From contig JAPLYL010000003.1 in NCBI GenBank assembly GCA_026395595.1, positions 12,136 to 76,135 on the forward strand: a stretch of 64,000 nt of DNA, read 5' to 3'. This stretch comes from Candidatus Parcubacteria bacterium (lineage in GTDB: Bacteria > Patescibacteriota > Minisyncoccia > Phycocordibacterales > CAIJYI01). The translations under genes were made by a program, and so were the position numbers. The notes under the pieces were generated by a model. That model was not told the origin of the DNA. It saw only the letters and a program-made list of their open reading frames with translations, and did no database searches. Shown here in pieces: positions 36,721 through 52,928 of the stretch (position 1 is its first letter; each line of letters starts with the position of its first letter).

Positions 36721-36766
36721 GTCGGATGTTTTTTGTGGTGGAGAGTTTTCGTGATAGGATATCAAT

Positions 36767-37327
36767 ATGGAAAAGGAATATTTAAATGTTTACGCGTTTA
36801 TTGACGCTTCCAACTTATGGCAGGCGCAAAAGGTAAAAGGACGAATGTTTGATTTTGAAAAACTTAAAAGGTTTTTGAAAGAAAAATTCAATGCCAAAAA
36901 TTTGAAAGTCTTTTACTATACCGCTTATCCCGCGGACGGAACGCGCGATTATAGTTTGGATTCAAAGCATAAATTTTTTACTTATTTAAAGAAAGGTTTA
37001 GATTTTGAGGTGGTCAAAAAAGAGCTGAAACGGATCAATGTTTCCAATGAATGCGGTGTCGTAATAGAAGAAAAAGGAAATATGGATGTTGAACTTACTA
37101 TTGACACGGTTCGTCATCTGGAGAAATATGATGCCGCGATATTTTTTACTGGTGATTCTGACTTTTTGGCACTGGTTACCTATTTAAGAAACCTCAAGAA
37201 AGACGTTTATGTTTTTTCTTCTAAAAATAATGTTTCTCAGGAATTAAGAACAGGAAGTAATGGTTATTTTGATGTTCTTGAAATAGGAGAAGACATTTGG
37301 GGCAAAAATCTTGAACATCGCCACTAA
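36767..37327 (+). CDS. NYN-domain (LabA-like, PIN-fold) putative ribonuclease
   Basis: YAFIDASNLW, MDVELTIDTV and FFTGDSDFLALV acidic motifs of the NYN/LabA fold. Confidence 0.7.
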   Translation: MEKEYLNVYAFIDASNLWQAQKVKGRMFDFEKLKRFLKEKFNAKNLKVFYYTAYPADGTRDYSLDSKHKFFTYLKKGLDFEVVKKELKRINVSNECGVVIEEKGNMDVELTIDTVRHLEKYDAAIFFTGDSDFLALVTYLRNLKKDVYVFSSKNNVSQELRTGSNGYFDVLEIGEDIWGKNLEHRH

Positions 37328-37530
37328 CAAAAAGCAACCCTCCTTGCGGAGGGTTGCCCTAGGATGTAGAACCCTTTCAGTCTATGAAAAACCGAAAGAC
37401 TCCTTTAATATAAGCTTATTGGGTGTTGGTGTCAAGTGCGTTTTGTGGATAAACCCCGCCACGGTTTGCGTTCCGCCAAAATTAGCGGTATTGTTTTGGT
37501 AAAGAAAAATTGTTAAATAAATTAAAATTT

Positions 37531-38106
37531 ATGGATGAACATAAAAAAGAAAATAAAATCTCTAAATTTAACCGCCCCAATCGTTCGTATCATATCGAAA
37601 CACATGATCCGCGCTGGTTTGATGAATTCGCAAAACGAAAATCAAAACTAGAAGCAATCCTAGGTGATATTGTGGTAGATATTCAACACACTGGAAGTAC
37701 TTCCGTACAAGGGCTCATCGCCAAACCACAAATTGATATCCTTGTAGTCGTAAAAAGGCTTGATGATATAATTCCTCATTACGATGACATGGAGGTCGCA
37801 GGGTTCACTCCGCGAGGTGATTATACTCATATCGGCGAAGAATATTTCACTGAGGATGATGAGCAAGGGACACGTCTTGCCAGTATACATATCCTCCCTG
37901 TCGGACATCCGGAGATTTCCGCAATTCTGGATTTTAGGGACTATCTTCGCTCTAATGCTAAAGATAGGAATTTATATGCCGCGACGAAACAAATCCTTTT
38001 TAAAAAGTTTCCCGATGATTATAAATCATACGATAGTGGTAAAACCGAGGTAATACTTGCGATTAAAAAACGTGCGAAAAACTGGGCGAATCAACGCGGA
38101 AAATAA
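37531..38106 (+). CDS. GrpB/UPF0157 family nucleotidyltransferase-fold protein
   Basis: DIQHTGSTSVQGLIAKPQIDILVVV and HIHILPVGHPE motifs typical of GrpB (COG2320). Confidence 0.7.
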   Translation: MDEHKKENKISKFNRPNRSYHIETHDPRWFDEFAKRKSKLEAILGDIVVDIQHTGSTSVQGLIAKPQIDILVVVKRLDDIIPHYDDMEVAGFTPRGDYTHIGEEYFTEDDEQGTRLASIHILPVGHPEISAILDFRDYLRSNAKDRNLYAATKQILFKKFPDDYKSYDSGKTEVILAIKKRAKNWANQRGK

Positions 38107-38145
38107 AAATCGCTACCGCCCATATAAGACGGTAGCGATGCTGTG

Positions 38146-38595
38146 TTAATTTCTGTAGACTTTTGTCGTTCGTAGAAACAATTTGTTGGTCGACACATAA
38201 TCATCAAAGTTAGAATATTGCTCCGTCGTAATGCAAAATACCTCACGAGGTGTTTTATTTGTCGGATTTTGTTCTGTTGCAAAAATTCCATAGGTTGAGG
38301 GCTCTAGAAAATACTCGTCGTTTTCCAGACCTCCGATACATCTCATATCCCCCAATCCCATGAATACTGAGAATTTGCGAATATCCACTATTTCACATTG
38401 TTTCTCGTCGCATATTTCTTCATATGCACCACTTACGACTTGAAATGGTTTGGACCATGCGATAAGTAAATCTTCGCTGTCAAAAGTCCCGGAAAGGAAA
38501 ATGTTTTCTGTGGATAATAATGTCGTTAGATCGAGTACCGGAATAAATCCAAAATCGGTCATCTTTACTCGTCCGTCTGTATTGTTTTGTCTCAT
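38146..38595 (-). CDS. hypothetical protein
   Basis: 149-aa ORF on the opposite strand within the inserted segment between rpsJ and rplC. Confidence 0.4.
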   Translation of the reverse strand: MRQNNTDGRVKMTDFGFIPVLDLTTLLSTENIFLSGTFDSEDLLIAWSKPFQVVSGAYEEICDEKQCEIVDIRKFSVFMGLGDMRCIGGLENDEYFLEPSTYGIFATEQNPTNKTPREVFCITTEQYSNFDDYVSTNKLFLRTTKVYRN

Positions 38596-38821
38596 TTTGA
38601 ATACCTCGTTTGAAATCTGAGTTTAGTATATCATTATAATTATGTAGTGTCAAGTTCATGTCGGAAAAGAAAAAAAGCGTTTGACGTCGGAGAATATTTC
38701 TGCTAGGATTAAAGCCAAACCTTAAAGGGCTTTTTTATTTTGCTCATGGTTGTTTTCACAGAGCTAATGGGACCAATGGCGATTGGGTGGTTACACACGC
38801 CCCGCGAAAGTCCCCAGAATT

Positions 38822-39439
38822 ATGAAATTTATACTCGGAGAAAAACTTGCGATGACGCAGATCTTCACAGAAGACGGCGTGGTCCATCCGGTTACCGCTG
38901 TTCAGTCAGGACAGATGACCGTTGTTCAAGTAAAGAACAAGAAAAAGGACGGTTACGACGCTATTCAGTATGGATATGGCGTTCGCAACGAAAAGAATAT
39001 CAATAAAGCGCAGATCGGCCATGCTAAAACGCTTGGCAATTTCCGATATTACCGCGAAGAACGTTTGCCGAACGAGGCGACTGTCAACCCGGGCGATACC
39101 GTTTCTTTGGATACCTTCAAAGTCGGTGATATCGTTGAGGTTTCGGCCATTTCCAAAGGTAAAGGTTTCCAAGGCGTTGTCAAAAGACATATGTTTGAAG
39201 GAGGCCGCCGAACTCACGGACAAAAACACTCAGAACGCGAAGCCGGTTCTATCGGCGGAGGTTCAAACGGCGGAGGAAGAGTCGCGAAAGGAAAAAGAAT
39301 GCCGGGAAGAATGGGTTCTGATCGCGTAACGGTTAAAAATTTGAAAATAGTAGCGATTGACCCGAGCACGAATCAGATATTCGTGTCCGGTGCAACACCT
39401 GGTCGAAGAGGAACTCTTATCGAAATTAAAGGTCTATAA
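38822..39439 (+). CDS. rplC: 50S ribosomal protein L3
   Basis: MKFILGEKLAMTQIFTEDGVVHPVTAV; start chosen at the internal ATG of the ORF-track ORF. Confidence 0.9.
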   Translation: MKFILGEKLAMTQIFTEDGVVHPVTAVQSGQMTVVQVKNKKKDGYDAIQYGYGVRNEKNINKAQIGHAKTLGNFRYYREERLPNEATVNPGDTVSLDTFKVGDIVEVSAISKGKGFQGVVKRHMFEGGRRTHGQKHSEREAGSIGGGSNGGGRVAKGKRMPGRMGSDRVTVKNLKIVAIDPSTNQIFVSGATPGRRGTLIEIKGL

Positions 39440-39443
39440 TTCC

Positions 39444-40106
39444 ATGGAAGCTAAAATATACAATCAAACAGGGAAGAGCGTAGGCACCATCGCTTTGCCG
39501 GAAGAAGTTTTCGGAGCGCAATGGAACGGCGACTTGGTACATCAGGTATTGATGTCTGAAGGCGGAAATGCTCGCGCCACCGTTGCTCATGCTAAAGGAC
39601 GCGGAGAAGTCCGCGGAGGAGGAAGAAAGCCATGGAAACAAAAAGGCACAGGACGCGCCCGACATGGTTCTACTCGCTCACCAATCTGGATTGGAGGAGG
39701 AGTCACCCATGGCCCGCTCACTGAAAAGGATTACACCCGAAAAATCAATCGAAAAATGAAAGCGGCCGCTTTATACGCGATCCTTTCAGAAAAATTGAAA
39801 AGCGGAGAAATCATCTTCTTGGATGAAATAAAAGCGAAGGATATCAAAACGAAAGAAGCGAAAACCATCATCACTTCCATCGCCAATATCCCGGGATGCG
39901 CCGATATTGCCACCAAAAGAAAAAATGCCGCCTTTATCGCGCTCGGAAAGAAAGACAAAGAGGCAGAGCGAATTTTTGGAAACATTAAAAGCGTTGTTAT
40001 TGGAGAATGGCGAAACATTACGCCTTCCGACCTTTTGAAATACAAATATATCGTTGTATCTCATCCGGAAGAAAGCGTGAAATTTGTCGCTTCAAAAATG
40101 AAATAA
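39444..40106 (+). CDS. rplD: 50S ribosomal protein L4
   Basis: MEAKIYNQTGKSVGTIALPEEVFG...; start placed after the rplC stop. Confidence 0.9.
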   Translation: MEAKIYNQTGKSVGTIALPEEVFGAQWNGDLVHQVLMSEGGNARATVAHAKGRGEVRGGGRKPWKQKGTGRARHGSTRSPIWIGGGVTHGPLTEKDYTRKINRKMKAAALYAILSEKLKSGEIIFLDEIKAKDIKTKEAKTIITSIANIPGCADIATKRKNAAFIALGKKDKEAERIFGNIKSVVIGEWRNITPSDLLKYKYIVVSHPEESVKFVASKMK

Positions 40107-40107
40107 C

Positions 40108-40407
40108 ATGACTGAAAACACTTTTAAAAACAAAACCGCCTCGGCCGTCTTGAAACGACCTCGCGTTACCGAAAAAGCGGCTATTCTCGTAGAGAACAAT
40201 GCCTATACGTTTGAGGTTGCCAGCGATGCGACAAAATCGGAAGTAAAAGCGGCCATCAAAGCGATGTACAAAGTCACTCCGATTCAGATCAACATGACGC
40301 AAGGCACCAAAAAGAATATCGTTCGCCGTGGTCGGGCGGGGGTAAAAACAACCAGCAAAAAAGCGGTTGTTCACCTTAAAAAAGGTGATAAAATAGAATT
40401 CATCTAA
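40108..40407 (+). CDS. rplW: 50S ribosomal protein L23
   Basis: 99 aa, VTEKAAILVENNAYTFEV... Confidence 0.9.
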   Translation: MTENTFKNKTASAVLKRPRVTEKAAILVENNAYTFEVASDATKSEVKAAIKAMYKVTPIQINMTQGTKKNIVRRGRAGVKTTSKKAVVHLKKGDKIEFI

Positions 40408-40487
40408 CTCTAGAAAAAAGGAAAAAGCAAAAAGAAAAAAGGGACGACACGCGGTATCTTTTTCTTTCAATTTTTCTTCAAAATTTT

Positions 40488-41330
40488 ATGAAAACACATA
40501 GACCTACAACCCCTTCAATGCGACACACAACGGTGGTTTCTTACCGCAACGTGTTGACCGCGACAAAACCCCACAAGGCTTTGACTTTTGGGCGTAAACG
40601 CGATGTTGGACGGAATGCCGACGGACGCATCACTACGCGTCATCAGGGAGGCGGACACAAACGCTTGTACCGCGAAATTGACTTTAAATATGCCAAAAAA
40701 GATATTCCGGCGAAGATTGAATCTATTGAATATGACCCGAACCGCACCGGTTTTATTTCCCTCGTCTGCTATAAAGACGGAGAAAGACGCTATATCTTAA
40801 CCCCAAAAACCATGAAGGTGGGCGACATGGTTATTATCTCAGAAAATGCAGAGATTAAACCGGGAAATCGTCTTCCGATGAAAAACATTCCTCAGAGTAC
40901 TTTTGTGTACAATGTGGAAGTAAAACCCGATGGAGGAGCTAAATTGGTTCGTTCCGGAGGAAGCTATGCTGAAATTGTGGCGAAGGATGCTCCGTATGTT
41001 CACTTGAAAATGCCGTCAGGAGAAATTCGCAAAATTCACGAAACCTCATGGGCTTCTGTCGGCGTTGTTTCCAACGATGAACACAAGCTTCGCAACGTCG
41101 GAAAAGCCGGCCGTTCCCGATGGCTCGGTATTCGTCCGACGGTCCGCGGTTCAGCGATGAATCCGGTTGACCACCCATACGGAGGAGGAGAAGGATCCCA
41201 AGGAAGAGGCTTGAAACGAGCCAAAACCGCTTGGGGAAAACCGTCAGGAAAAGGCCAGAAAACCAGAACCCCGAAGAAATACTCCAACGTCTTCATCGTC
41301 TCCCGCAGAAAAACTCGAAAGAAGAAATAA
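40488..41330 (+). CDS. rplB: 50S ribosomal protein L2
   Basis: 280 aa; GRNADGRITTRHQGGGHKRLYR and VRGSAMNPVDHPYGGGEG motifs. Confidence 0.95.
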   Translation: MKTHRPTTPSMRHTTVVSYRNVLTATKPHKALTFGRKRDVGRNADGRITTRHQGGGHKRLYREIDFKYAKKDIPAKIESIEYDPNRTGFISLVCYKDGERRYILTPKTMKVGDMVIISENAEIKPGNRLPMKNIPQSTFVYNVEVKPDGGAKLVRSGGSYAEIVAKDAPYVHLKMPSGEIRKIHETSWASVGVVSNDEHKLRNVGKAGRSRWLGIRPTVRGSAMNPVDHPYGGGEGSQGRGLKRAKTAWGKPSGKGQKTRTPKKYSNVFIVSRRKTRKKK

Positions 41331-41400
41331 AAAACTTTCAACAAAAAACCGCCGAAAGGCGGTTTTTGTATTGACAAATTGTACTGTATATGATATATAA
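41219..41400 (+). repeat. rplB-3'-tail/terminator/promoter module, copy 1 (native)
   Basis: Last ~110 nt of rplB, hairpin ccgccgaaaggcgg-ttttt, then TTGACA-N17-TATATA. Confidence 0.7.
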
Positions 41401-41438
41401 AAACAGGATACATTTCTATTTACAATAGGAGAATTTAA

Positions 41439-41744
41439 ATGTGGTACGTTATTGGTGGAATTAGCTTGTTCATACTCGGAATATTATGCATAGTTATGCA
41501 AACAAGCGAGTGGATGAAGACGGGTGATAAAAGTATTTTAAATGGTCTTTTGGCACCCTATGCTATGATATTTTTTGGCTGGATACTTATGGAGGACGTT
41601 CTTGTCTCATCGGTTGATTTTGTTTTTTATCTCCATACTCAATGGTGGTATGTGTCTGCGTTAGTTAGTATGCCACTTGTGATAATAATATCATGTGCTG
41701 TTGCTGTAATTTGCATTAAAAGTCGCGAGGACTCAAAAAAATAA
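41439..41744 (+). CDS. small membrane protein, hypothetical
   Basis: 101 aa, 3 hydrophobic helices. Confidence 0.4.
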   Translation: MWYVIGGISLFILGILCIVMQTSEWMKTGDKSILNGLLAPYAMIFFGWILMEDVLVSSVDFVFYLHTQWWYVSALVSMPLVIIISCAVAVICIKSREDSKK

Positions 41745-41845
41745 AAAGTGATATTTCGCCGGACGCGGGTCTTTGCCCTCGTCCGTTTTTTTGTACGAAA
41801 ATTTTTGTCGCAAAGCGCCTGTTTTTTTGGTATAATAAATGTACC

Positions 41846-42142
41846 ATGATAATGGATTCTGCACGAACAATCGAAAAAATCCCGCAATATGTTGCGCCAT
41901 TTTTGTGGTCGTATGATATTGCAGCACTTGATTTTGAGCGGGATAAAAAGAGGATCGTGGTAAACGTCCTTAACTTCGGGACAAAAGAAGCTACCGATTG
42001 GCTGTTTTCCGTGTATCCAAAGGAGGAAATTCGCAAGATCGTCGCCGAGTCGCTGTATGGAGAATGGAATAAAAAATCCTTATATTATTGGCGGTTTGTG
42101 CTTGGAATTTCCACACAGCTTAAAACCTCGCGTTTTTCATAA
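41846..42142 (+). CDS. putative antitoxin partner of the downstream DUF1814 nucleotidyltransferase
   Basis: 98-aa ORF immediately upstream of, and co-directional with, the NTase; no motif. Confidence 0.35.
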   Translation: MIMDSARTIEKIPQYVAPFLWSYDIAALDFERDKKRIVVNVLNFGTKEATDWLFSVYPKEEIRKIVAESLYGEWNKKSLYYWRFVLGISTQLKTSRFS

Positions 42143-42146
42143 TTCT

Positions 42147-42767
42147 ATGCACTACGAAATTTTAGACGAACAAAGAAGAAATATGTTGCCGCTTTTTCGT
42201 GAATTTAAAAATGACTTCTATATGGCGGGCGGTACGGCACTTGCGCTCCAGCTTGGACACCGTGACAGCATTGATTTTGATTTTTTTTCAGAAACGCCGA
42301 TAAATACGCAGAAATTGTTTGAAAAAATTCGCGAGGTTTTTCAAGGGCATATCATCGCAAAAACGCAAGAAGAGGCCAATACTCTTTCCGTGCTTATTGA
42401 TGAACGAATTAAATTAAGTTTTTTCTCATATTCGTACCCTTTGCTTGCGGAAACTATTGACGAAGAAAATTTTCGTTTGGCGAGTGTTAAAGATATCGCT
42501 TGCATGAAATTGTCGGCGATCACGGGTCGCGCCAGCAACAAAGACTATATTGATCTCTATTATATTCTCCAAACCATTCCGCTTTCGCATCTGCTTATTT
42601 TGGCGGAACAAAAATTTGATGCGTTGGATCAGAATCTTCTCTTAAAAAGTATTATCTATTTTGAAGATATCACGGTTGATCCGATCTTATTCAAAGAAGG
42701 CAAAGAAGTTTCGTTTGAAGTCGTAAAAACATTTTTAGAAAACGAAGTAAAGAAAATAACGAGATAA
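42147..42767 (+). CDS. DUF1814 nucleotidyltransferase (AbiEii/MenT-like toxin family)
   Basis: YMAGGTALALQLGHRDSIDFDFF NTase motif. Start at the internal ATG; the upstream part of ORF 42057 is read-through. Confidence 0.7.
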   Translation: MHYEILDEQRRNMLPLFREFKNDFYMAGGTALALQLGHRDSIDFDFFSETPINTQKLFEKIREVFQGHIIAKTQEEANTLSVLIDERIKLSFFSYSYPLLAETIDEENFRLASVKDIACMKLSAITGRASNKDYIDLYYILQTIPLSHLLILAEQKFDALDQNLLLKSIIYFEDITVDPILFKEGKEVSFEVVKTFLENEVKKITR

Positions 42768-42768
42768 G

Positions 42769-42955
42769 AGCCAAAACCGCTTGGGGAAAACCGTCAGGAA
42801 AAGGCCAGAAGACCAGAACGCCGAAGAAATACTCCAACGTCTTCATCGTTTCCCGCAGAAAAACAAGAAAGAAAAAATAAAATACCAAACAAAAATCCGC
42901 CAAAAAAGGCGGTTTTTTGTATTGTATTGACAAAATGGTATTATCGTGTATTATC
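42769..42955 (+). repeat. rplB-3'-tail/terminator/promoter module, copy 2
   Basis: Near-identical rplB tail (still encodes AKTAWGKPSGKGQKTRTPKKYSNVFIVSRRKTRKKK), terminator hairpin and TTGACA-N16-TATTAT; begins 1 nt after the NTase stop. Confidence 0.75.
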
Positions 42956-43000
42956 AAAATAGGTTTATTTTAGTTGATTGATATTTTAGGAGAGAACAAA

Positions 43001-43186
43001 ATGAAGAAAAAACACTATACATGCGTTAGGTGTGGAGCACAAGATTACGAAACCGAATCCAATTTTTGCGATAAATGCAGAGTGCAAGCATTAGCGCCAA
43101 AATGGGAAAAAGATTATAGCGGCGGTTTTGCATTAACAGGAACACTTGCTCTTTATGCCTCTTTAGCTATAACTTTGTTTTTGTAA
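43001..43186 (+). CDS. small zinc-ribbon protein with C-terminal TM, hypothetical
   Basis: CVRCGAQDY...CDKCRVQ two CxxC pairs; hydrophobic tail. Confidence 0.35.
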   Translation: MKKKHYTCVRCGAQDYETESNFCDKCRVQALAPKWEKDYSGGFALTGTLALYASLAITLFL

Positions 43187-43291
43187 GTTTTTTTATTCCG
43201 GACGGGGTTTCTCACCTCGTTCGGTTTTTTGTATTTTTGAATCGAGTTCGGTTTGTTTTGGAAATTAACTGATATATGTTAAAATAACATC

Positions 43292-43645
43292 ATGAATGAG
43301 AAAACCCCGATAATCCTTTTTGGTTCTCAAGCACGCGGTGTTGCTCGGGTGGATTCTGATGTGGATATTGGCGTGCTTGGAGAACAAAACCTTACTCTTG
43401 ATGAAAAAATGGCGGTGTGTGAAAAAGTTGCGCGCGAGCTTAAGGTTTCGGAAGATAAGATTGATTTGGTAGAACTTCGTCATGCTTCGCCTCTGCTTCA
43501 GTACCATGCGGGAAGGGAAGGAAAATTGCTTTTTGGAGACCATCAAAAGTTTATTCGTTTTCAGGTGCTTTCATGGAAACTTTATTTGAGCACGGCGAAA
43601 TTTAGAAGAATGCGCGAATTATCACTGGCAAAAAAATATGCTTAA
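43292..43645 (+). CDS. minimal nucleotidyltransferase (MntA-type antitoxin)
   Basis: GSQARGVARVDSDVDIGVL NTase signature; overlaps the downstream HEPN gene by 8 nt. Confidence 0.8.
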   Translation: MNEKTPIILFGSQARGVARVDSDVDIGVLGEQNLTLDEKMAVCEKVARELKVSEDKIDLVELRHASPLLQYHAGREGKLLFGDHQKFIRFQVLSWKLYLSTAKFRRMRELSLAKKYA

Positions 43646-44054
43646 CGAAATTTTAATCAAAAAGATAGAACAGATAGATATTCTTCTCCGCGAGCTTGAA
43701 GGATTTACTGCGCATACTTTTGAAGAATTTGAAAAAGATATCTCCGATATGAGAGCATCGGAACGGAATTTTCAGCTTATCGTCGATCTTGCTTCCGACG
43801 TGAATACCGAGCTTCTTTTGGAAAGCGGACATCGTGCACCGGATACGTACAAGCAGTCGTTTCTTTTTCTTGCCGATATTGGAATCGTTGAGAAAAAACT
43901 TGCGGAAGAACTTTCACAAAGTGCTCTGATTCGAAATATATTGGTTCATGAATATGACATAGACGAAGACAATGCGACATTTTATCGCGAAGCAAAAAGA
44001 TTTTTGCCGATTTTTCGGGAATACCTGAAAGCGGTTATCGGGTACAAGAAGTAA
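43638..44054 (+). CDS. HEPN/DUF86 protein (HepT-type toxin)
   Basis: Rx4-6H HEPN motif RNILVHEYD near the C-terminus. Confidence 0.8.
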   Translation: MLNEILIKKIEQIDILLRELEGFTAHTFEEFEKDISDMRASERNFQLIVDLASDVNTELLLESGHRAPDTYKQSFLFLADIGIVEKKLAEELSQSALIRNILVHEYDIDEDNATFYREAKRFLPIFREYLKAVIGYKK

Positions 44055-44057
44055 ATA

Positions 44058-44278
44058 AACGAGACAAAATTGCAAAGGGAAAACCATCAGGAAAAGTTTA
44101 TCTCTCTTCTCTCTCTGAGAGACGCGGGACAAGGAAAGACCAGAACTCCGAAGAAATACTCAAACGTCTTCCTTGTCTCCCGCAGAAAAACAAGAAAGAA
44201 AAAATAAAATACCAAACAAAAATCCGCCAAAAAAGGCGGTTTTTTGTATTGACAGAAAGTAAGGAAGTAATATAATAA
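44058..44278 (+). repeat. rplB-3'-tail/terminator/promoter module, copy 3 (with ~40-nt internal indel)
   Basis: Starts 4 nt after the HEPN stop; tail plus hairpin ccgccaaaaaaggcgg-tttttt and TTGACA-N16-TATAAT ending 7 nt before the ATG of 44284 (leaderless-like). Confidence 0.7.
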
Positions 44279-44283
44279 GAAAT

Positions 44284-44538
44284 ATGGAAACAACCACAAC
44301 TCGCATTCAAAAAATTACGAGCAAGGGGCAAATCACGTTGCCCGCCTCTTGGCGCGCACGGACAAAAACGGATACCATCACCGTAAAGATAATCGGCGAC
44401 ACAGTGGAAATTTCACCTGCTCGTTTGCAAGATAAAGATGAATACACCGTTTTTGATGCCATTCGCGATAACAAAGGAAAAGGAATAAAGGCCTCTGATT
44501 TGATAAAAATACTCCGCAAAATCGATGAAGGAAATTGA
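44284..44538 (+). CDS. AbrB/MazE/SpoVT-fold antitoxin
   Basis: ITSKGQITLPASWRARTKTDTITVKIIGDTVEI swapped-hairpin motif. Confidence 0.7.
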   Translation: METTTTRIQKITSKGQITLPASWRARTKTDTITVKIIGDTVEISPARLQDKDEYTVFDAIRDNKGKGIKASDLIKILRKIDEGN

Positions 44539-44767
44539 AAAACTCCTTCGGAAAATATCAGCAAAAGAACGAGCAGGATTGCTTGCTTTTTTGGAACAAT
44601 TATCCGTCAAAAATGAACACGGAAATCTTGATGTAAAAAAACTGAAAGGAAGTGATCTTTTTCGTGCGCGAAAAGGAAATTTCCGTATAATTTTTCATTA
44701 CGAAGAAAAAGAAATCACTATCGATTCTATTCGGTTGCGAAATGATAATACTTATCACGATGTGTAA
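44525..44767 (+). CDS. RelE/ParE-family toxin
   Basis: 80 aa, FRARKGNFRIIFHYEEKEITIDSIRLRNDNTY; overlaps the antitoxin gene by 14 nt. Confidence 0.65.
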   Translation: MKEIEKLLRKISAKERAGLLAFLEQLSVKNEHGNLDVKKLKGSDLFRARKGNFRIIFHYEEKEITIDSIRLRNDNTYHDV

Positions 44768-44782
44768 AATGAAACAAAAAAA

Positions 44783-44820
44783 GTAAAAAATCCCCCGACT
44801 TGTCGGGGGATTTTTGTTTG
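44783..44820. terminator. bidirectional rho-independent terminator
   Basis: atcccccgacttgtcgggggat flanked by an A-run and a T-run. Confidence 0.65.
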
Positions 44821-44823
44821 TCG

Positions 44824-45003
44824 TTATTTCGGCAAAACATATTTTCCGGTAAATGGTCCGTAGAAAAAAGATTTTGCAAACACTACGGCAAATTGATTCC
44901 GTGTTAAATGGATAAGTTTGCTTGAGTTTTGTCTCAATTCGTCTCGAATAATGGATATTCCGATACCGCACCAGAAAAGTAGTGCAACTAATATATATAT
45001 CAT
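44824..45003 (-). CDS. small single-TM protein, hypothetical (start at internal ATG with AAGGAG SD)
   Basis: MIYILVALLFWCGIGISII hydrophobic helix. Confidence 0.3.
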   Translation of the reverse strand: MIYILVALLFWCGIGISIIRDELRQNSSKLIHLTRNQFAVVFAKSFFYGPFTGKYVLPK

Positions 45004-45133
45004 AAAGAACTCCTTTTGTTTGTCTCTTTGTTCCTTTGAGAATTTATCATAATTCTCAATTAAAAGCAAAAAAATGGCATGTTTACGAATAATCTCTTTT
45101 TTTGATTGATATATTAGGTTATACTATAACCAT

Positions 45134-46042
45134 ATGAAAGAAACAAAAACATTAAAAAAGGCAGGAGAACATATTCGAAAAGCGTTTGACTTTTACCAAC
45201 AGAAATATCGCGCTCTCCTTTTTGTTTCCTGTATTATTATTGTCCCATCTCTTCTCGTTTCTATTTTTTCTCAGAAAGAGGTAATGCTTTCTGTTGTGCA
45301 TACTTTCGGTTTTTTCTTCACTCTTTTTTGTGGAGTTGTTTTGGGAATTCTTTTCATTGTCATTTCTTCATGGGGACAGATTGCTCTTATGTACATGGTG
45401 AAAGATTCGGATGATAAACTCACACCATCTCATGCCTTCAATCTTGCGTGGCAAAAATTGATGTCTTATTGGTGGGTAATGTTTCTCATCGGTTTTTTGG
45501 TTTTTGGCGGAATAATGCTGTTTATTGTTCCCGGATTTCTTTTTGCGATATGGTTCAGTATGGCTTATTTTGTGTTAATTGCGGAAGGTGAAAAAGGAAT
45601 GAATGCGCTGTTGAAAAGCCGAGAGTATATAAAAGGGAGAGCCTGGTCAGTTTTTTGGAGATACCTCGTTTTATCTTTTTGCACGCTTCTTTTTGGTATT
45701 CCCGTGAGTATTCTTTTCTCTGGTATTCCCGAACCGTGGGGCGGGATCATTACACAAAACATCTTTTCTTTTTTTGTTGTCCCGTTCAACGTTATATACA
45801 TATTTCTGGTTTATCGCGATCTTGTGGAAACAAAAGGTGAGTTTTCTTTTGTTCCTAAACAAAAAACTAAAAGAATTTTTATTGCTCTCGGATGGCTTGG
45901 TATTCTGTTGCCGATAATTCTTATTATTTCTCTTTGGAAGTTTCTTCCTCCTGAAAAATTGAATACGCTTATTCCTCCAAAATTTGATATGACGCAAAAA
46001 AGCATTAACTCTCTTTCTTCTGCAATCATTCCCTTTATTTAA
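45134..46042 (+). CDS. polytopic membrane protein, hypothetical
   Basis: 302 aa, about 6 hydrophobic helices. Confidence 0.5.
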   Translation: MKETKTLKKAGEHIRKAFDFYQQKYRALLFVSCIIIVPSLLVSIFSQKEVMLSVVHTFGFFFTLFCGVVLGILFIVISSWGQIALMYMVKDSDDKLTPSHAFNLAWQKLMSYWWVMFLIGFLVFGGIMLFIVPGFLFAIWFSMAYFVLIAEGEKGMNALLKSREYIKGRAWSVFWRYLVLSFCTLLFGIPVSILFSGIPEPWGGIITQNIFSFFVVPFNVIYIFLVYRDLVETKGEFSFVPKQKTKRIFIALGWLGILLPIILIISLWKFLPPEKLNTLIPPKFDMTQKSINSLSSAIIPFI

Positions 46043-46103
46043 AAGGCATATTGCTTTTTATTGAAAATTGTTGTTAAATACATCCGGACACTTTTACATT
46101 AAC

Positions 46104-46161
46104 CAGCCCGCCTTCGCTCTGAGTTTATCGAAGGGCTATGGCGGGCAAAGAAGGAGGTTCT
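46104..46161 (+). promoter_or_regulatory. conserved 5' leader stem-loop plus RBS, copy A (upstream of gcvT)
   Basis: gcccgcc-ttcgctcTGAGTTTAtcgaagggctat-ggcgggc-aaagAAGGAGGttctATG; near-identical copy at 47655-47712. Confidence 0.5.
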
Positions 46162-47316
46162 ATGTCCGAACTTTTGAAAACACCGCTTTCCGATTGTCAT
46201 ATCACCAACGGCGCAAGAATGGCGGAATTCGCTGGCTATTCCATGCCGATCAATTATCAGACCGGAGCATTGAAAGAAATCAAAGCCGTTCGCGAGACTG
46301 CGGGACTTTTTGATATTTCCCATATGCGCCCGATTGTCGTGGAGGGTCTTTCTGCCCGAAGTTTTCTCAACTATATTGATACACGGGATCTTTCCCTCAT
46401 GAAACCAGGTGATGCCCTCTACGGGATAGTCTGTAACGATTTGGGAGAGCCAATAGATGATATCATTGTGTATCAAGACCCATTCTCTGAAAAAGAACGC
46501 GAGTCATTTCTTGTCATTTCAAATGCCAGCAATGGTGCACAAGTTCACCGGCATTTGTGTGGAGTGAAAAAAGCCTTTAACCTTCCCGACGAACACGTGA
46601 AAATTGAGGACGGTTTAGGTCAGTACGGCTTTCTTTCTTTGCAGGGGCCGAATGCGGAAGCTATTTTGGCGGAAGCAATTCATTGTCGCGATGCTATTCC
46701 GAAAAAGTACTATTCGTGTCAGTATGCGCTTCTCTTCGGATATTTGGCTCTCGTGGCAAAAACGGGATACACCGGCGAAGCGGGTTTTGAAATTCTGTGT
46801 GACAAACAAGTTACGCTGGAAATCTGGACGAAGTTACTGGAAGTCGGAGCACCTCATGGACTCATTCCTTGCGGTCTTGCTTCACGAGATACTTTGCGTC
46901 TGGAGGCTGGTATGCCACTCTTTGGACACGAAATGGACGCTGACCATGATCCGATAATGGCGGGCTTGGGTAAGTACGTTAATTTTGACAAACTCCGGTA
47001 TTTCCTCGGAAAAATTTCTTTGCAAAATGTTCTGAATGGAAAATCTTCAAAACCGCGCGAATATCTCCATGCCTTCATTATGGAAAAAGGACGCGTTCCA
47101 AGACATGGCGATAAACTTTTCTTGAAAGATGAAATGAATCTTAAAATAGGGAAGCTGACCAGTGCCGGTTTTTCTCCAACGTTGGAAAAAAACATTGCCA
47201 TGGGATACGTAGACCGCGAACTGGCTTTCGGTTCAGAGGTTCTTATTGAAATCGGCGGAAAGTTATATCCCGCCGTCGTTACAAAACTTCCGTTCTACAA
47301 AAGAACGAAGAAATAA
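46162..47316 (+). CDS. gcvT: glycine cleavage system aminomethyltransferase T
   Basis: TPLSDCHITNGARMAEFAGYSMPINYQ...GYTGEAGFEI GcvT signature; start at the second ATG after the RBS. Confidence 0.85.
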   Translation: MSELLKTPLSDCHITNGARMAEFAGYSMPINYQTGALKEIKAVRETAGLFDISHMRPIVVEGLSARSFLNYIDTRDLSLMKPGDALYGIVCNDLGEPIDDIIVYQDPFSEKERESFLVISNASNGAQVHRHLCGVKKAFNLPDEHVKIEDGLGQYGFLSLQGPNAEAILAEAIHCRDAIPKKYYSCQYALLFGYLALVAKTGYTGEAGFEILCDKQVTLEIWTKLLEVGAPHGLIPCGLASRDTLRLEAGMPLFGHEMDADHDPIMAGLGKYVNFDKLRYFLGKISLQNVLNGKSSKPREYLHAFIMEKGRVPRHGDKLFLKDEMNLKIGKLTSAGFSPTLEKNIAMGYVDRELAFGSEVLIEIGGKLYPAVVTKLPFYKRTKK

Positions 47317-47328
47317 AGAGTAAAACCC

Positions 47329-47357
47329 ATCGCCCCGAGTAATCGGGGCGATTTTTC
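47329..47357 (+). terminator. rho-independent terminator
   Basis: cgccccgagtaatcggggcg followed by atttttct. Confidence 0.65.
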
Positions 47358-47373
47358 TAAACCCTGTCTATGT

Positions 47374-47545
47374 CGTATTGCAAGGTCTTTCCTTAAGGAG
47401 GAGTGTAGCGAAGCGGAACGACGGGGAAAGGTGAGGAATGGGTAAGGGACCCATTCTGCAAGACTTTTTGAGAAATTTTATGAGGTACGAATAAAATATC
47501 CAAAAAGTAACTGCTCCTGTAAGGAGAGACCTTGGGGCTATTTTG
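47374..47545. repeat. dispersed hairpin element, long copy (core 12-bp stem CAAGGTCTTTCC/GGAGAGACCTTG with ~100-nt nested insertion)
   Basis: Same core as 55904-55971; shares AAGGAGGAGCGAAGCG with the MITE-like element at 9145-9404. Confidence 0.55.
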
Positions 47546-47654
47546 CTTGGTTAGAACTTATTGACAATCTAAACAACGGTATGAGTAACATCGTGTCAAC
47601 GTTGATATGCTTTGCGTGTCTGGTATCATTGTCAATGGTTTTGATATTTGAAAT

Positions 47655-47712
47655 AAACCCGCCTATGCCCTGAGTTTACCGAGGGGCTATGGCGGGCAGA
47701 GAAGGAGGTACT
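47655..47712 (+). promoter_or_regulatory. conserved 5' leader stem-loop plus RBS, copy B (upstream of metallophosphoesterase gene)
   Basis: acccgcc-tatgcccTGAGTTTAccgaggggctat-ggcgggc-agagAAGGAGGtactATG. Confidence 0.5.
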
Positions 47713-48876
47713 ATGGATACGACGCAAACCGCTGTAACCGTTTGGTATGAACAAGCTGTAAAGCTTCTTCAGTCCGCTCGGAAAAAAGCGAAAAAAATGT
47801 CTCCGGAAGAACTTATTGTTCTGAAAAAAGAGACGTATGAAGAACTGGAACATCTTTTTACCGAACGCAGTCTTCGCGAAGAGATTGCGGAAGATAGAAA
47901 TCTCCGCAAGACAAAAGCGGAAGAAAGCGATCTGAAAAAGAAGTACAAAGCGCTTCAAGAACAAGTAGAAATGCTTGAAAGAGAAAATCTGGCGATACGT
48001 GAACTGCAAAAAGATCACAATACTCATGCCATTACACCGAATACCGGTCTTGGAACTTCCGAAGCAACCGCAGTTGCCATTCTTTCCGATTGGCATTGTG
48101 AAGAAATAGTTCGTTCCGAAACGGTTAACGGGAAAAATTCTTTCAATCTGGATCGTGCAAGAAAACGCGCAGACCGGTGTTTCCAAAAGATTGTCAGTTT
48201 GACGAGAAAAGAACAGCAAGATGTTACCATCAATAATCTGGTTGTAGGATTGCTCGGCGATTTTATCTCCGGCAACATTCACGAAGAATTGTTGGAAAAT
48301 TGCCAGCTTCGCCCGATGGAAGCGATTCTCTTTGCTCAAGGACTTCTTGAGTCCGGAATTTTGTTTCTTCTTGAACAAACGAAACTGAATTTGACGTTCG
48401 TCTGTCATGTCGGCAACCATACGCGGATTACGAAAAAAGTGCATATTTCCACGGAGATGGGGAATTCGCTTGAGTCTTTAATGTATTGTTCGCTCAAACA
48501 AAGATTTGCTTCCGAACCCCGCGTGAAGTTCATTATCGCGGAAGGGTATCACTCTTATCTGGAAGTGTACGGAACGAAAATCCGTTTTCATCACGGACAT
48601 TCTTTGCGGTATCAAGGCGGTGTCGGCGGATTAACCATTCCTGTCAATAAAGCCATTGCTCAGTGGAATAAGATCATACCGGTTGACTTGGACATCTTCG
48701 GACACTGGCACACCTACATGCACATGAAGAACTTTGTGGCCAACGGCTCGCTCATCGGCTACAATGCCTTTGCTCTTTCCATTAAAGCGGACTTTGACGT
48801 CCCCAAACAGGCCTATTTCTTGATAGACAAACGCCTCGGCCCGTCAATTTTCGCCCCGATTTTTGTAGATAAGTAG
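47713..48876 (+). CDS. calcineurin-like metallophosphoesterase with N-terminal coiled-coil
   Basis: GNHTR, GHSLRYQGG and GHWHTYMH metallophosphatase motifs; N-terminal ~110 aa coiled-coil. Confidence 0.65.
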   Translation: MDTTQTAVTVWYEQAVKLLQSARKKAKKMSPEELIVLKKETYEELEHLFTERSLREEIAEDRNLRKTKAEESDLKKKYKALQEQVEMLERENLAIRELQKDHNTHAITPNTGLGTSEATAVAILSDWHCEEIVRSETVNGKNSFNLDRARKRADRCFQKIVSLTRKEQQDVTINNLVVGLLGDFISGNIHEELLENCQLRPMEAILFAQGLLESGILFLLEQTKLNLTFVCHVGNHTRITKKVHISTEMGNSLESLMYCSLKQRFASEPRVKFIIAEGYHSYLEVYGTKIRFHHGHSLRYQGGVGGLTIPVNKAIAQWNKIIPVDLDIFGHWHTYMHMKNFVANGSLIGYNAFALSIKADFDVPKQAYFLIDKRLGPSIFAPIFVDK

Positions 48877-48884
48877 TATTTTGT

Positions 48885-48919
48885 CCCATTCCCGCCCCAG
48901 TAACTGGGGCGGTTTTTTT
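48885..48919 (+). terminator. rho-independent terminator
   Basis: cccgccccagtaactggggcgg followed by tttttta. Confidence 0.65.
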
Positions 48920-49051
48920 ATACAAAAATGACCCTTTTTCCAAAGTCTCGGTCTTTTCTCTCTCTTGTATTGACTTAATCACTCCTTTTTGTTAGGATAC
49001 ACCGTAAAGCTCACAAATAAGCGGAGCTTTTGTTTTTGACTAAAAATCACT

Positions 49052-49405
49052 ATGACTAGATCGCTCAAAAAAGGTCCTTATGTGGACGAAAAACTGTTAA
49101 AGAAGATTGAAGGCAAAAAGCCTTCTCAAACGCCTCCGATCAAAACTTGGGCGCGCGCGAGTCAGATTTCCCCTGAAATGGTGGGATTCATTTTTGGCGT
49201 TCATAACGGAAGAGCGCACGTTGAAGTGTTAGTAAGCGAAGACATGGTCGGCCATCGTTTGGGTGAGTTTTCTCCGACGAGAAAGTTCATCAGACATGGA
49301 GGTAAAATGCAGAAAGAAATAGAACAGAAGAAGAAGGAGTCCGAAATCTCCGCCGCGAAAGCCGCAAAGGCCGCGCCTGCAGCTGATACAAAAAAGAAGA
49401 AATAA
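49052..49405 (+). CDS. rpsS: 30S ribosomal protein S19 (K/A-rich C-terminal tail)
   Basis: [19 protein letters not shown]... Confidence 0.9.
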
Positions 49406-49426
49406 AACTGAAATATCACAATCACC

Positions 49427-52280: not shown

Positions 52281-52340
52281 TAAAAAGAAAAAGGTACTTG
52301 CGTATGCTTGTCATATGCTTATCCTATATCACCTAATACC

Positions 52341-52886: not shown

Positions 52887-52899
52887 ATTTACAAAAAAA

Positions 52900-52926: not shown

Positions 52927-52928
52927 GT

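What the first reader, a model, noticed from the sequence alone, without database searches (positions are those of the whole stretch)
41219..44278. Three copies of an rplB-3'-tail/terminator/promoter module delimit serially inserted cassettes inside the S10 ribosomal operon
Seen in sequence: the last ~110 nt of rplB, its terminator hairpin and a TTGACA-N16/17-TATAAT-like promoter recur at 42769-42955 and 44058-44278. Copy 2 begins 1 nt after the stop of the DUF1814 NTase gene and copy 3 begins 4 nt after the HEPN gene stop. Copies 2 and 3 are closer to each other than to copy 1. Cassettes are a membrane protein plus antitoxin plus DUF1814 NTase; a Zn-ribbon protein plus MntA plus HepT; and AbrB plus RelE plus a membrane protein plus gcvT plus a phosphoesterase. 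rpsS resumes at 49052.

Inference: a site-specific or homology-driven cassette-accretion mechanism targets the rplB terminator. It resembles an integron in outcome but has no integrase nearby, and each cassette inherits a promoter.
Basis: partly seen in the sequence, partly recalled or inferred. Interest (0 to 1): 0.75.

Follow-up and report, generated by a model that had tools for sequence, protein, structure and literature searches.

The report
Cassette hotspot behind ribosomal gene rplB
In a tiny-genome groundwater bacterium (Paceibacterota), the spot just after ribosomal gene rplB collects small toxin-antitoxin units, and each arrival pushes the old gene end one place downstream, apparently without an integrase of its own.

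Summary
The last ~115-135 nt of rplB, its terminator and a TTGACA promoter occur three times: 41213-41399, 42763-42954 and 44057-44276. They bracket two toxin-antitoxin (TA) units.

Fifteen or so related rplB loci vary strongly here. The shared backbone is rplB-(small ORF)-gcvT-395-aa gene-rpsS. Between rplB and gcvT, relatives carry zero to six different small genes or TA pairs. Several carry their own displaced rplB ends.

Displaced tails keep an intact L2 reading frame: 34 synonymous against 3 non-synonymous codon differences. They lack start codons, so they are young or are refreshed from working rplB genes. What follows a displaced tail in one genome sits directly after rplB in another. 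rplB itself is mosaic.

Best reading (about 0.5): sequential displacement anchored on rplB homology, followed by exchange at the shared linkers. A recombinase encoded elsewhere and acting on the hairpins is not excluded (about 0.25).

Verdict: a new variant of a known kind. It is unusual for sitting inside the S10 ribosomal operon.

The parts
40488..41330 (+). rplB (ribosomal protein L2, 280 aa). It serves as the conserved anchor gene.
   Evidence: Pfam Ribosomal_L2_N and L2_C match at E 1e-34 and 1e-48. It is 84-95% identical to L2 of the related arrays.
41213..41399 (+). Module copy 1. It holds the working rplB tail (to 41330), a terminator hairpin (41344-41367), a -35 box (41371-41376) and an extended -10 TGaTATATA (41391-41399).
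   Evidence: hairpin -11.6 kcal/mol, z -4.6. The promoter was read by eye.
41439..41744 (+). Small membrane-type ORF of 101 aa (mem101). It fills the first slot as a small-ORF cassette.
   Evidence: No family was found. A homologue 74% identical lies in L088 in front of MntA-HepT instead of AbiE.
41759..41796 (+). hp element copy 1: CCGGACG, an inner stem-loop, CGTCCG, then a T run and GTA.
   Evidence: (34.8 bits).
41846..42142 (+). DUF6922 protein, the presumed antitoxin partner of AbiEii.
   Evidence: Pfam PF21956 matches at 44.7 bits against a cut-off of 27. It is always paired with AbiEii in L093, L098 and L100.
42150..42767 (+). AbiEii-type nucleotidyltransferase toxin. The longest ORF starts at 42057; homologues start at MHYEILDEQ, which is 42150.
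   Evidence: Pfam PF08843 matches at 59.2 bits against a cut-off of 22.5. PADLOC AbiEii models also match. Gene calls in relatives give 206 aa.
42763..42954 (+). Module copy 2. It holds a displaced rplB tail with an intact L2 frame but no start codon, a terminator (42897-42912), a -35 box (42927-42932) and a -10 box (42949-42954).
43001..43186 (+). Small Zn-ribbon ORF of 61 aa from the ATG (the ORF list gives a TTG start at 42974).
   Evidence: It shows CxxC...CxxC motifs. Matches to L37e-type ribbons are weak and below cut-off.
43198..43246 (+). hp element copy 2, with the conserved 3' flank TTTTTTGTATTTTTGAAT.
   Evidence: (42.3 bits).
43292..43645 (+). MntA nucleotidyltransferase antitoxin.
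   Evidence: NCBIfam NF047752 matches at 73 bits against a cut-off of 60. Pfam Polbeta matches.
43638..44054 (+). HepT (HEPN) RNase toxin.
   Evidence: NCBIfam NF047751 matches at 75.5 bits against a cut-off of 60. Pfam HepT-like matches.
44057..44276 (+). Module copy 3, an older and decaying displaced tail. It has a 39-nt mini-hairpin-like insert (44097-44135) and a frame shift. It also holds a terminator (44224-44239), a -35 box (44249-44254) and a -10 box (44271-44276).
44284..44767 (+). AbrB/MazE-type antitoxin (44284-44538) and a ParE/RelE-like toxin (44525-44767), followed by a terminator (44786-44815).
   Evidence: Pfam MazE_antitoxin scores 25.0 against a cut-off of 24.7. ParE_toxin scores 20.2, below its cut-off of 23. 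The same pair, 82% identical and with the same promoter, lies in L001/L084.
45134..48876 (+). Backbone genes: a membrane protein (45134-46042), gcvT (46162-47316 from the RBS-linked ATG) and a 387/395-aa protein of unknown family (47713-48876).
   Evidence: The same order, gcvT then a ~387-aa gene then rpsS, is seen in relatives with 88% identical L2. G+C is 44-45%, like the ribosomal genes, against 37-38% for the cassettes.
48892..49405 (+). Terminator (48892-48912), promoter-like site (48970-48998) and rpsS (49052-49405), where the operon resumes.

Best explanation
The three modules are the working 3' end of rplB and two former rplB ends that were pushed downstream. The position directly after rplB is a population-wide cassette hotspot in one clade of Paceibacterota (Candidate Phyla Radiation, CPR).

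New DNA arrives from related cells as a piece that starts inside the donor's rplB end. That piece carries, in order, the tail, the terminator, the promoter, a small ORF, the hp hairpin and a TA pair.

The highly conserved rplB sequence provides the homology that anchors recombination. The far end is then joined in one of two ways. One is an illegitimate joint inside the resident tail. The other applies once arrays exist: ordinary 'ends-in' or single-crossover recombination of a fragment or circle that carries module sequence.

The resident tail, with its terminator, promoter and everything behind it, moves one place downstream. This is sequential displacement, with the newest unit next to rplB.

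Afterwards the shared linkers (the tail module and hp) act as homology for swapping, deleting and converting cassettes within and between strains. No dedicated recombinase is required.

Shown: the anatomy, the variation among relatives, the coding-type conservation of displaced tails, the slot shifts and the mosaic rplB.

Inferred: the recombination pathway itself.
For: 1. The backbone rplB-(small ORF)-gcvT-~390-aa gene-rpsS is shared by relatives with 88% identical L2. The TA units are extra. L087 has none, and L086 carries only one small ORF.

2. The first slot after rplB holds a different gene in 9 of 9 lineages.

3. What follows a displaced tail in one genome is the first-slot cassette in another.
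- The 170-aa family is in slot 1 in L089 but lies after the displaced tail in L088.
- The 'leader X/MSEKV' cassette is in slot 1 in L085 and L099 but lies after the displaced tail in L083.
- The 113-aa family is in slot 1 in L084 but lies after the displaced tail in L099.

4. Displaced tails keep the L2 reading frame. Synonymous to non-synonymous codon differences between the working tail (M1) and the displaced tail (M2) of the same genome are 6:0 (window), 8:2 (L085), 9:1 (L100) and 11:0 (L099). The copies in the window and in L088 have no in-frame start codon. They were therefore parts of working rplB genes until recently, or are overwritten from such genes.

5. The distal copy 3 is decayed while the proximal copy 2 is intact. 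This fits the newest unit lying next to rplB.

6. rplB is mosaic between lineages with different cassettes. L085 and L087 are 83.5% identical over nt 1-399 and 94.4% over nt 400-843 (Fisher p 3.6e-7 before correction for about 720 break points).

7. Copies within a genome share derived features. In L100 both M1 and M2 carry the same substitutions and the same mini-hairpin insert. In the window, copies 2 and 3 are identical over 64 nt. This indicates recombination or conversion between copies.

8. Left edges of independent displaced tails differ, at window positions of about 41197, 41213 or earlier, about 41221 and about 41236.

9. No recombinase gene lies in any array.

10. Cassettes have 37-38% G+C against 44-46% for the neighbouring ribosomal genes.

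11. The same logic is published for T6SS effector-immunity arrays and for Rhs 'C-terminal displacement' (PMC5361080, read).
Against: - All four independent tail edges fall within about 40 nt, and all lie 95-135 nt before the stop codon. Random illegitimate joints need not cluster like this. However, instability of long repeats and the limit of detection narrow the expected range.
- Three different toxin genes (AbiEii, HepT, HicA-like) each end 0-18 nt before the displaced tail. This suggests that the cassettes have a defined right end.
- The hp element has an invariant outer stem and a conserved 30-nt 3' flank. It occurs almost only in these arrays, which looks more like a recognised site than a plain terminator.
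- Nine different genes in one slot imply a high rate of new insertions, whereas illegitimate recombination is rare.
- No clear microhomology was found at the joints.
- Competence of this organism was not tested. A ComEC-type gene was seen only on the contig of relative L103.
Confidence: 0.5

Rival explanations
1. Site-specific recombination by an enzyme encoded elsewhere in the genome. In this reading the hp hairpin and the module terminator are recombination sites, and cassettes move as small circles that integrate next to rplB. This would resemble integron cassettes, cis-mobilizable elements lacking an integrase, or Xer-dependent elements.
For: - hp has an invariant outer stem (CCGGACG/CGTCCGG), interchangeable inner stems of three subtypes and a conserved 3' flank.
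- Strong hp matches occur only in the arrays and always on the + strand.
- Direct hp copies flank AbrB-RelE in L084 and the Y1_Tnp unit in L092. Module copies flank the TA units in the same way.
- L093 and L094 encode an identical L2 and share the same 88-aa gene. They are identical in the stretch shown through hp and diverge 19 nt after it.
- L088 lacks exactly the hp-to-hp segment of the window.
- Toxin stop codons abut the displaced tails closely.
- Contents of the first slot turn over fast.
Against: - No tyrosine or serine recombinase lies in or near any of about 15 arrays. The only one in the window is a large serine recombinase 14 kb away, beside the tmRNA gene.
- Integron core motifs are absent from hp and from the module.
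- Right edges of hp homology vary: after the T run, after GTA, after GAAC or after GGGATTTT.
- Left edges of the displaced tails vary over about 40 nt.
- Cassettes carry their own promoters.
- hp subtype does not travel with the neighbouring ORF.
Confidence: 0.25
2. Single-strand transposition by a Y1 (HUH) transposase of the IS200/IS605 or RAYT kind. In this reading hp hairpins are the ends it recognises, and TA cassettes are non-autonomous passengers moved in trans.
For: - A Y1_Tnp gene (PF01797) sits in the rplB array of L091/L092. It is flanked by inverted REP-type hairpins, and the whole unit lies between two direct hp copies.
- Other Y1_Tnp genes lie in the rpsJ-rplC gap of L100 and, by eye plus homology to the L100 gene, in the rplB-rpsS gap of L017.
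- REP-type hairpins follow hp in L084, L092, L099 and L103. One lies in the window at 35942.
- All hp copies lie on one strand.
Against: - The window has no Y1_Tnp (tblastn).
- The hairpins that flank the transposase in inverted orientation are the REP type, not hp.
- IS200/IS605 transposition makes no long duplications, so it does not explain repeated 115-240-nt rplB ends.
- No conserved tetranucleotide target was identified.
Confidence: 0.08
3. A local tandem duplication of the rplB end plus downstream genes, followed by divergence. No horizontal input is involved.
For: - Two units of the same architecture (tail, terminator, promoter, small ORF, hp, antitoxin, toxin) lie head to tail with periods of 1550 and about 1300 nt.
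- Copies within a genome share derived features.
Against: - The cargo of the two units is unrelated: mem101 against a Zn-ribbon ORF, and DUF6922-AbiEii against MntA-HepT.
- The same cassettes occur in other orders and other slots in relatives.
- In L099 the displaced tail resembles the L100 alleles (91%) more than its own working tail (89%). It also carries the L100-type insert.
Confidence: 0.05
4. An assembly artefact, in which alternative strain variants were stitched in series through a shared repeat.
For: - The source is evidently a metagenome-assembled genome.
- Contigs of relatives often break at the module or at hp (L093-L096).
Against: - The AbiEii-to-tail junction is present in independent assemblies from different samples and assemblers: L085, L093, L096, L098 and L100-L102.
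- The HepT-to-tail junction is also present in L088.
- The copies differ from each other, so they are not collapsed or duplicated reads.
Confidence: 0.02

Closest known systems
Sequential displacement arrays: Rhs 'C-terminal displacement', orphan CDI toxin/immunity modules, and orphan immunity arrays of Vibrio T6SS clusters (PMC5361080)
   Same: - A conserved upstream gene serves as the homology anchor.
- Incoming modules take the position next to it.
- Older modules shift downstream, each preceded by a leftover piece of the anchor gene's 3' part.
- The arrays are heterogeneous and differ between strains.
- No integrase is involved. Homology-facilitated illegitimate recombination was proposed as the mechanism.
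   Different: - The anchor here is an essential ribosomal protein gene inside the S10 operon, not a polymorphic toxin gene.
- The incoming tail encodes the same protein end rather than a new toxin tip.
- The cargo is self-contained TA pairs and small ORFs with their own promoters.
- A second conserved linker (hp) is present.
Tandem accretion of integrative elements at the 3' end of a housekeeping gene. Examples recalled from memory are e14 or phage 21 in icd, which carry a substitute 3' end; ICE/CIME at fda; and SCC elements at rlmH. The CIME and accretion concept is cited only as a search hit (PMC5704250, listed, not read).
   Same: - Direct repeats made of the target gene's end flank each unit.
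- The working gene is restored by element-borne sequence whose differences are mostly synonymous.
- Units without an integrase can sit in such arrays.
   Different: - No integrase was found in any unit of about 15 arrays.
- The units are only 1.3-1.6 kb.
- Repeat edges are not constant.
- The repeats are long (115-240 nt) and include the terminator and promoter.
Integrons and integrase-less attC clusters (CALINs)
   Same: - Arrays of small, diverse and often TA-bearing cassettes lie next to a fixed site.
- The cassettes are separated by hairpin-forming elements whose outer part is conserved and whose inner part varies.
- Content varies between strains.
   Different: - There is no intI gene.
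- The RYYYAAC/GTTRRRY core sites are absent.
- Cassettes carry their own promoters.
- One linker type is a piece of a ribosomal protein gene.
Minimal mobile elements of Neisseria (search hits PMC3787668 and PMC3082526; the description below is from general knowledge, the papers were not read)
   Same: - Different whole-gene cassettes occupy the same site between conserved flanking genes in different strains.
- They are exchanged by homologous recombination after DNA uptake, without mobility genes.
   Different: Here the cassettes stack up in series, with duplication of the left flank. They also share internal linker elements.
IS200/IS605 elements and RAYT/REP systems
   Same: - Hairpin elements lie on one strand.
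- A Y1 transposase flanked by inverted REP-type hairpins sits inside the array of one relative.
   Different: - The window has no transposase.
- hp is not the hairpin that flanks the transposase in inverted orientation.
- Long duplications are not a product of this kind of transposition.

Membership tests
Integron | An intI tyrosine recombinase gene next to the array. | tested here: not met
   All ORFs from 39357 to 49870 were scanned against Pfam and none is a recombinase. Gene calls within 10 kb of rplB in L089-L103 list none either. The only recombinase in the window is a large serine recombinase at 25656-27257.
Integron | attC sites with RYYYAAC ... GTTRRRY core boxes. | tested here: not met
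   By inspection of the hp alignment and the module alignment, the outer boxes are CCGGACG/CGTCCGG or CCGCC/GGCGG. No GTTRRRY is present. No dedicated attC model was run.
Integron | Promoterless cassettes expressed from one common promoter. | tested here: not met
   Near-consensus promoter-like sites precede each unit. TGGTATAAT-type sites precede the AbiE pair.
Integron | Cassette content varies between close relatives. | tested here: met
Integrative elements accreted at a gene's 3' end (CIME/ICE, e14-icd type) | Direct repeats of the target gene's 3' end flank each unit, and the working gene stays intact. | tested here: met
Integrative elements accreted at a gene's 3' end (CIME/ICE, e14-icd type) | An integrase in at least one unit of such arrays. 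| tested here: not met
   None was found in the window array or in about 15 related arrays.
Integrative elements accreted at a gene's 3' end (CIME/ICE, e14-icd type) | A constant crossover core, so that the repeat edge is constant. | tested here: inconclusive
   Edges lie at window positions of about 41197, 41213 or earlier, about 41221 and about 41236 in four independent junctions. Secondary deletions have occurred. The edges cluster but are not fixed.
Sequential displacement by homology-anchored recombination (Rhs / CDI / T6SS arrays) | Leftover 3' pieces of the anchor gene each precede an older module. | tested here: met
Sequential displacement by homology-anchored recombination (Rhs / CDI / T6SS arrays) | A displaced module in one genome is the first-position module in another. 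| tested here: met
   This holds for the 170-aa family, the 113-aa family and the leader-X cassette.
Sequential displacement by homology-anchored recombination (Rhs / CDI / T6SS arrays) | Recombination break points inside the anchor gene. | tested here: met
   rplB of L085 against L087 has a break near nt 399: 83.5% identity before it and 94.4% after. This is one clear pair; other pairs are weak.
Sequential displacement by homology-anchored recombination (Rhs / CDI / T6SS arrays) | Microhomology at the illegitimate joint. | tested here: inconclusive
   The joints are purine-rich on both sides, and no clear shared motif was found.
IS200/IS605 or RAYT-REP | A Y1 HUH transposase. | tested here: not met
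   tblastn with three Y1_Tnp proteins finds nothing in the window. The gene is present in relatives L091/L092 and L100 (Pfam gene calls) and in L017 (by eye and 37% identity to the L100 gene).
IS200/IS605 or RAYT-REP | Related hairpins at both ends of the moved unit. | tested here: inconclusive
   hp copies flank the Y1_Tnp unit in L092 and AbrB-RelE in L084. The transposase's own inverted hairpins are of the REP type.
Type VII toxin-antitoxin MntA/HepT | Both proteins score above the curated family cut-offs, and the genes are adjacent and overlapping. | tested here: met
   MntA scores 73 bits and HepT 75.5 bits, each against a cut-off of 60. The genes overlap by 8 nt.
AbiE (type IV toxin-antitoxin / abortive infection) | An AbiEii nucleotidyltransferase together with an AbiEi antitoxin. 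| tested here: inconclusive
   AbiEii is met (Pfam 59.2 bits against a cut-off of 22.5; PADLOC). The partner is DUF6922, not a recognised AbiEi.

The most novel reading that the evidence does not exclude
The hp hairpin and the rplB-end terminator are sites for a dedicated recombinase that has not yet been identified and is encoded elsewhere in the genome. On this reading, this clade of CPR bacteria has its own integron-like gene-capture platform. It would be anchored inside the S10 ribosomal operon and would stack self-promoted TA and small-ORF cassettes.
Probability: 0.2. Interest if true: 0.85.

Novelty: new variant of a known kind. Interest (0 to 1): 0.6.

Why it matters
- The S10 operon has one of the most conserved gene orders in bacteria. 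Here it is split after rplB and used as a landing pad for TA and defence-type cassettes in bacteria with very small genomes and few classical mobile elements.
- The locus shows how a highly conserved essential gene can serve as a universal homology arm for gene gain without an integrase. It offers a compact natural system of 1.3-1.6-kb units for telling that route apart from a hidden site-specific one.
- There is a practical side. The repeated rplB ends and the strain variation break metagenome contigs exactly at the ribosomal marker block used for CPR phylogeny and binning (L093-L096).

Tried and rejected
- Exact look-up of the window's L2 and HepT proteins found nothing on record. The S19 look-up gave only a 948-nt contig.
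- Representative genomes with 62-72% identical L2 (L002-L022) have variable rplB-rpsS gaps (148 nt to more than 10 kb) but no tail duplicates. They also lack the window's cassette genes. The module system is therefore confined to the clade with 84-95% identical L2.
- Scans of viral contigs for the hp flank and for the tail pattern gave 0 hits.
- Rfam found nothing in 41150-49100 above a gathering score, only weak terminator-driven matches.
- I considered that displaced tails are translated as small basic peptides or as frameshift fusions. There is no in-frame start codon in the window or L088 copies. In L085 the frame opens only after the AbiEii stop codon. Rejected.
- I considered that 'TTTTTGTATT' is a generic terminator feature. 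It occurs only four times in 64 kb, all within the array, so it is not generic. In the module it is partly explained as the 3' arm of an extended A-tract/T-tract palindrome.
- I considered that L085 and L088 are overlapping pieces of one array. No sequence overlap was found, so this stays open.
- Pair counting on the hp alignment was not run, because the inner stems are misaligned by MAFFT and the outer stem never varies.
- Full-text searches on CPR, integrons, and ribosomal operons with TA insertions found no description of this locus.

Full report
**What is there**

The window comes from a Patescibacteria/Paceibacterota genome. The best matches of its L2 protein are metagenome-assembled genomes of that group.

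rplB occupies 40488-41330 and rpsS starts only at 49052. In ordinary bacteria the two genes are 3-40 nt apart.

The end of rplB, its terminator hairpin and a promoter-like site are present three times.
- Copy 1 is the working end (41213-41399).
- Copy 2 (42763-42954) is 87% identical to copy 1 over 172 nt.
- Copy 3 (44057-44276) is split by a 39-nt insert.
- Copies 2 and 3 are 95.7% identical over 116 nt and identical over their last 64 nt.
- The promoter-like sites of copies 3 and 2 match the consensus at 12 and 11 of 12 positions.
- The hairpins fold far better than shuffled sequence.

- Unit 1 holds a 101-aa membrane-type ORF, DUF6922 and AbiEii.
- Unit 2 holds a small Zn-ribbon ORF, MntA and HepT.
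- After copy 3 come an AbrB/MazE-like protein and a ParE/RelE-like protein.
- Then follow a membrane protein, gcvT and a 395-aa protein.
- The 395-aa protein matched no family, so 'phosphoesterase' is unconfirmed.

**A second linker**

A hairpin element, here called hp, follows the first small ORF of each unit (41759-41796 and 43198-43246).
- It reads CCGGACG, an inner stem-loop, CGTCCGG, then ATTTTTGTATTTTTGAACGGGATTTT.
- It occurs nowhere else in the 64-kb window.
- In relatives it always lies on the + strand inside the array behind rplB.
- The outer stem is invariant.
- The inner stem comes in three self-complementary subtypes, which do not follow the neighbouring ORF.

The repeated architecture is therefore: rplB tail, terminator, promoter, small ORF, hp, antitoxin, toxin.

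**Relatives**

A pattern scan of metagenome contigs and context look-ups of close L2 homologues gave about 15 related loci with 84-95% identical L2.

- L089/L090 have rplB, a 170-aa ORF, gcvT, a 387-aa gene and rpsS. gcvT and the 395-aa gene are therefore the old backbone. Their G+C (44-45%) matches the ribosomal genes, whereas the cassettes have 37-38%.
- L087 has rplB, the membrane protein and gcvT, with no TA units. L086 has one 80-aa ORF.
- L001/L084 has a 113-aa ORF, hp, a REP-type hairpin pair, the same AbrB-RelE pair with the same promoter as the window, and hp again.
- L085/L093/L096 have an 88-aa ORF, hp, DUF6922-AbiEii and a displaced tail.
- L098 has the same AbiE unit, with a displaced tail broken by four ~32-nt inserts.
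- L100-L102 have the AbiE unit followed by a 240-nt copy of their own rplB end, 91% identical.
- L083 has a HicB/HicA-like pair (judged by eye) followed by a displaced tail.
- L099 has a displaced tail directly after hp and a REP palindrome.
- L088 has mem101, hp, MntA-HepT and a displaced tail. It lacks exactly the hp-to-hp stretch of the window.
- L093 and L094 encode an identical L2 and share the same 88-aa gene. They are identical in the stretch shown through hp and diverge 19 nt after it.
- Contigs of this group often end at a module or at hp.

More distant relatives (62-72% identical L2) also have variable rplB-rpsS gaps, but no tail copies and none of these cassettes.

**Junctions**

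- The AbiEii-to-tail junction is the same event in the window, L085, L098 and L100, because the stop codon sits at the same place. L085 and L100 keep an ~18-nt spacer and a tail that starts about 20 nt further 5'. The window has lost 37 nt and L098 24 nt. The '1 nt after the stop' fit is therefore secondary.
- The HepT-to-tail junction is shared by the window and L088.
- Independent junctions are therefore few: AbiEii, HepT, HicA-like and L099. Their left edges spread over about 40 nt.

**State of the displaced tails**

Intact displaced tails still read as the L2 C-terminus. Against the working tail of the same genome, the codon differences are:

| Genome | Synonymous | Non-synonymous |
|---|---|---|
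| Window | 6 | 0 |
| L085 | 8 | 2 |
| L100 | 9 | 1 |
| L099 | 11 | 0 |

- Roughly a quarter to a third of random base changes in a coding sequence are synonymous (general knowledge). A total of 34 of 37 is far beyond that expectation.
- The window and L088 copies have no in-frame start codon. In L085 the frame opens only after the toxin's stop codon. The tails are therefore not translated.
- It follows that they were parts of working rplB genes until recently, or are overwritten from such genes.
- Both routes occur. In L100 the two copies share private substitutions and a private insert after the stop codon.
- In L099 the displaced copy resembles the L100 alleles (91%) more than its own working tail (89%). 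It also carries the L100-type insert. L099 and L100 come from the same sample.
- Other copies are decaying: window copy 3, and the displaced tails of L098 and L083.

**Direction of growth**

- The cassette behind a displaced tail in one genome is the first-slot cassette in another. This holds for the 170-aa family, the 113-aa family and the leader-X cassette.
- In the window the distal copy is the decayed one.
- Both facts fit insertion next to rplB, with older units pushed downstream.
- rplB itself is mosaic between L085 and L087, which carry different cassettes.

**Mechanism**

I commit, at about 0.5, to sequential displacement anchored on rplB homology, followed by exchange at the shared linkers. 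This is the logic proposed for Rhs, CDI and T6SS arrays (PMC5361080).

A fragment or circle that carries module sequence can also enter a naive locus by ordinary recombination and leave the module duplicated. That step is inference.

Several points keep a hidden site-specific system alive, at about 0.25:
- the site-like conservation of hp;
- direct hp copies around AbrB-RelE (L084) and around a Y1 transposase unit (L092);
- the tight toxin-to-tail joints;
- nine different genes in one slot.

No recombinase lies in any array. The window's only one is a large serine recombinase beside the tmRNA gene, 14 kb away.

A Y1/HUH route is less likely. The window has no such gene, and that chemistry does not make long duplications.

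Plain local duplication is contradicted by the unrelated cargo of the two units. An assembly artefact is contradicted by the same junctions appearing in independent assemblies.

**Comparison and novelty**

The locus works like displacement arrays and like the hotspot 'minimal mobile elements' of Neisseria (search hits; concept from general knowledge). It resembles integrons in outcome but fails their defining tests.

I found no description of it in the searchable literature. I rate it a new variant of a known kind. It is notable for its place inside the S10 operon of a CPR bacterium, for the coding-grade freshness of the displaced gene ends, and for the array-specific hp element.

Noticed in passing
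window 46107-46147, 47658-47698, 58287-58317 (-), and the insert 44097-44135; L098 4904-5099; L100 10858-10893 and 12478-12513; L099 11425-11460, 2238-2270 and 14365-14400: A family of ~32-45-nt mini-hairpins (CCyGCCTyCGC...GCTACGGCGnGGCrAAGG) sits immediately upstream of the Shine-Dalgarno sequence and start codon of several genes (gcvT, the 395-aa gene and others). It also occurs as insertions in displaced rplB tails: four in L098 and one each in L083 and window copy 3. In L100 and L099 it sits after the rplB stop codon with an apparent 9-nt AAGAAATAA duplication. It contains a CCTCC stretch that could pair with the ribosome-binding site. It may be a mobile leader or translational-control hairpin.
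   Followed up: partly
window 47370-47540 and 55910-55985: A structured-looking sequence (GCAAGGTCTTTCCTTAAGGAGGAG...GGGGAAAGG...GAGACCTTGGGGCTATTT) follows both gcvT and the EF-G-like gene. The first 49 nt are 90% identical between the two copies. The copy after gcvT carries a ~100-nt internal insert. No Rfam match was found.
   Followed up: no
window 35860-35970 and 36300-38600: The rpsJ-rplC junction is a second insertion zone of the same operon. It holds an NYN-domain gene, a GrpB gene and a REP-type hairpin (CCGGTTCGGGGTTGTACCCCGAACCGAAA at 35942). That hairpin is of the kind that flanks the Y1 transposase in L092. In L100 a Y1_Tnp gene sits at this same junction.
   Followed up: partly
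window 17600-27600: A large serine recombinase (25656-27257) overlaps the 3' side of the tmRNA gene (27172-27571, - strand). Upstream lie large ORFs (18395-23578), one of which looks by eye like a DNA methyltransferase, and a LOOT RNA (23961-24079). This is probably a separate island integrated at the tmRNA gene.
   Followed up: partly
window 52308-55910: The ribosomal protein block stops after rplE (judged by eye). It continues with a reverse-strand ORF and an EF-G-like gene instead of rpsH/rplF. The operon is therefore fragmented at several points in this genome.
   Followed up: no
L093-L096 (contig ends), L002 and L021: Contigs carrying closely related rplB genes often end at the rplB tail module or at hp. 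The repeats and strain variation fragment assemblies at the ribosomal marker block.
   Followed up: partly
L085 2623-3465 against L087 1947-2789: rplB is mosaic between the two lineages: 83.5% identity in nt 1-399 against 94.4% in nt 400-843.
   Followed up: yes
L091/L092 6160-6900; L084 1670-1850: A 167-aa Y1_Tnp gene is flanked by inverted REP-type hairpins (RAYT-like). A transposase-less REP pair sits at the same relative place in L084.
   Followed up: partly
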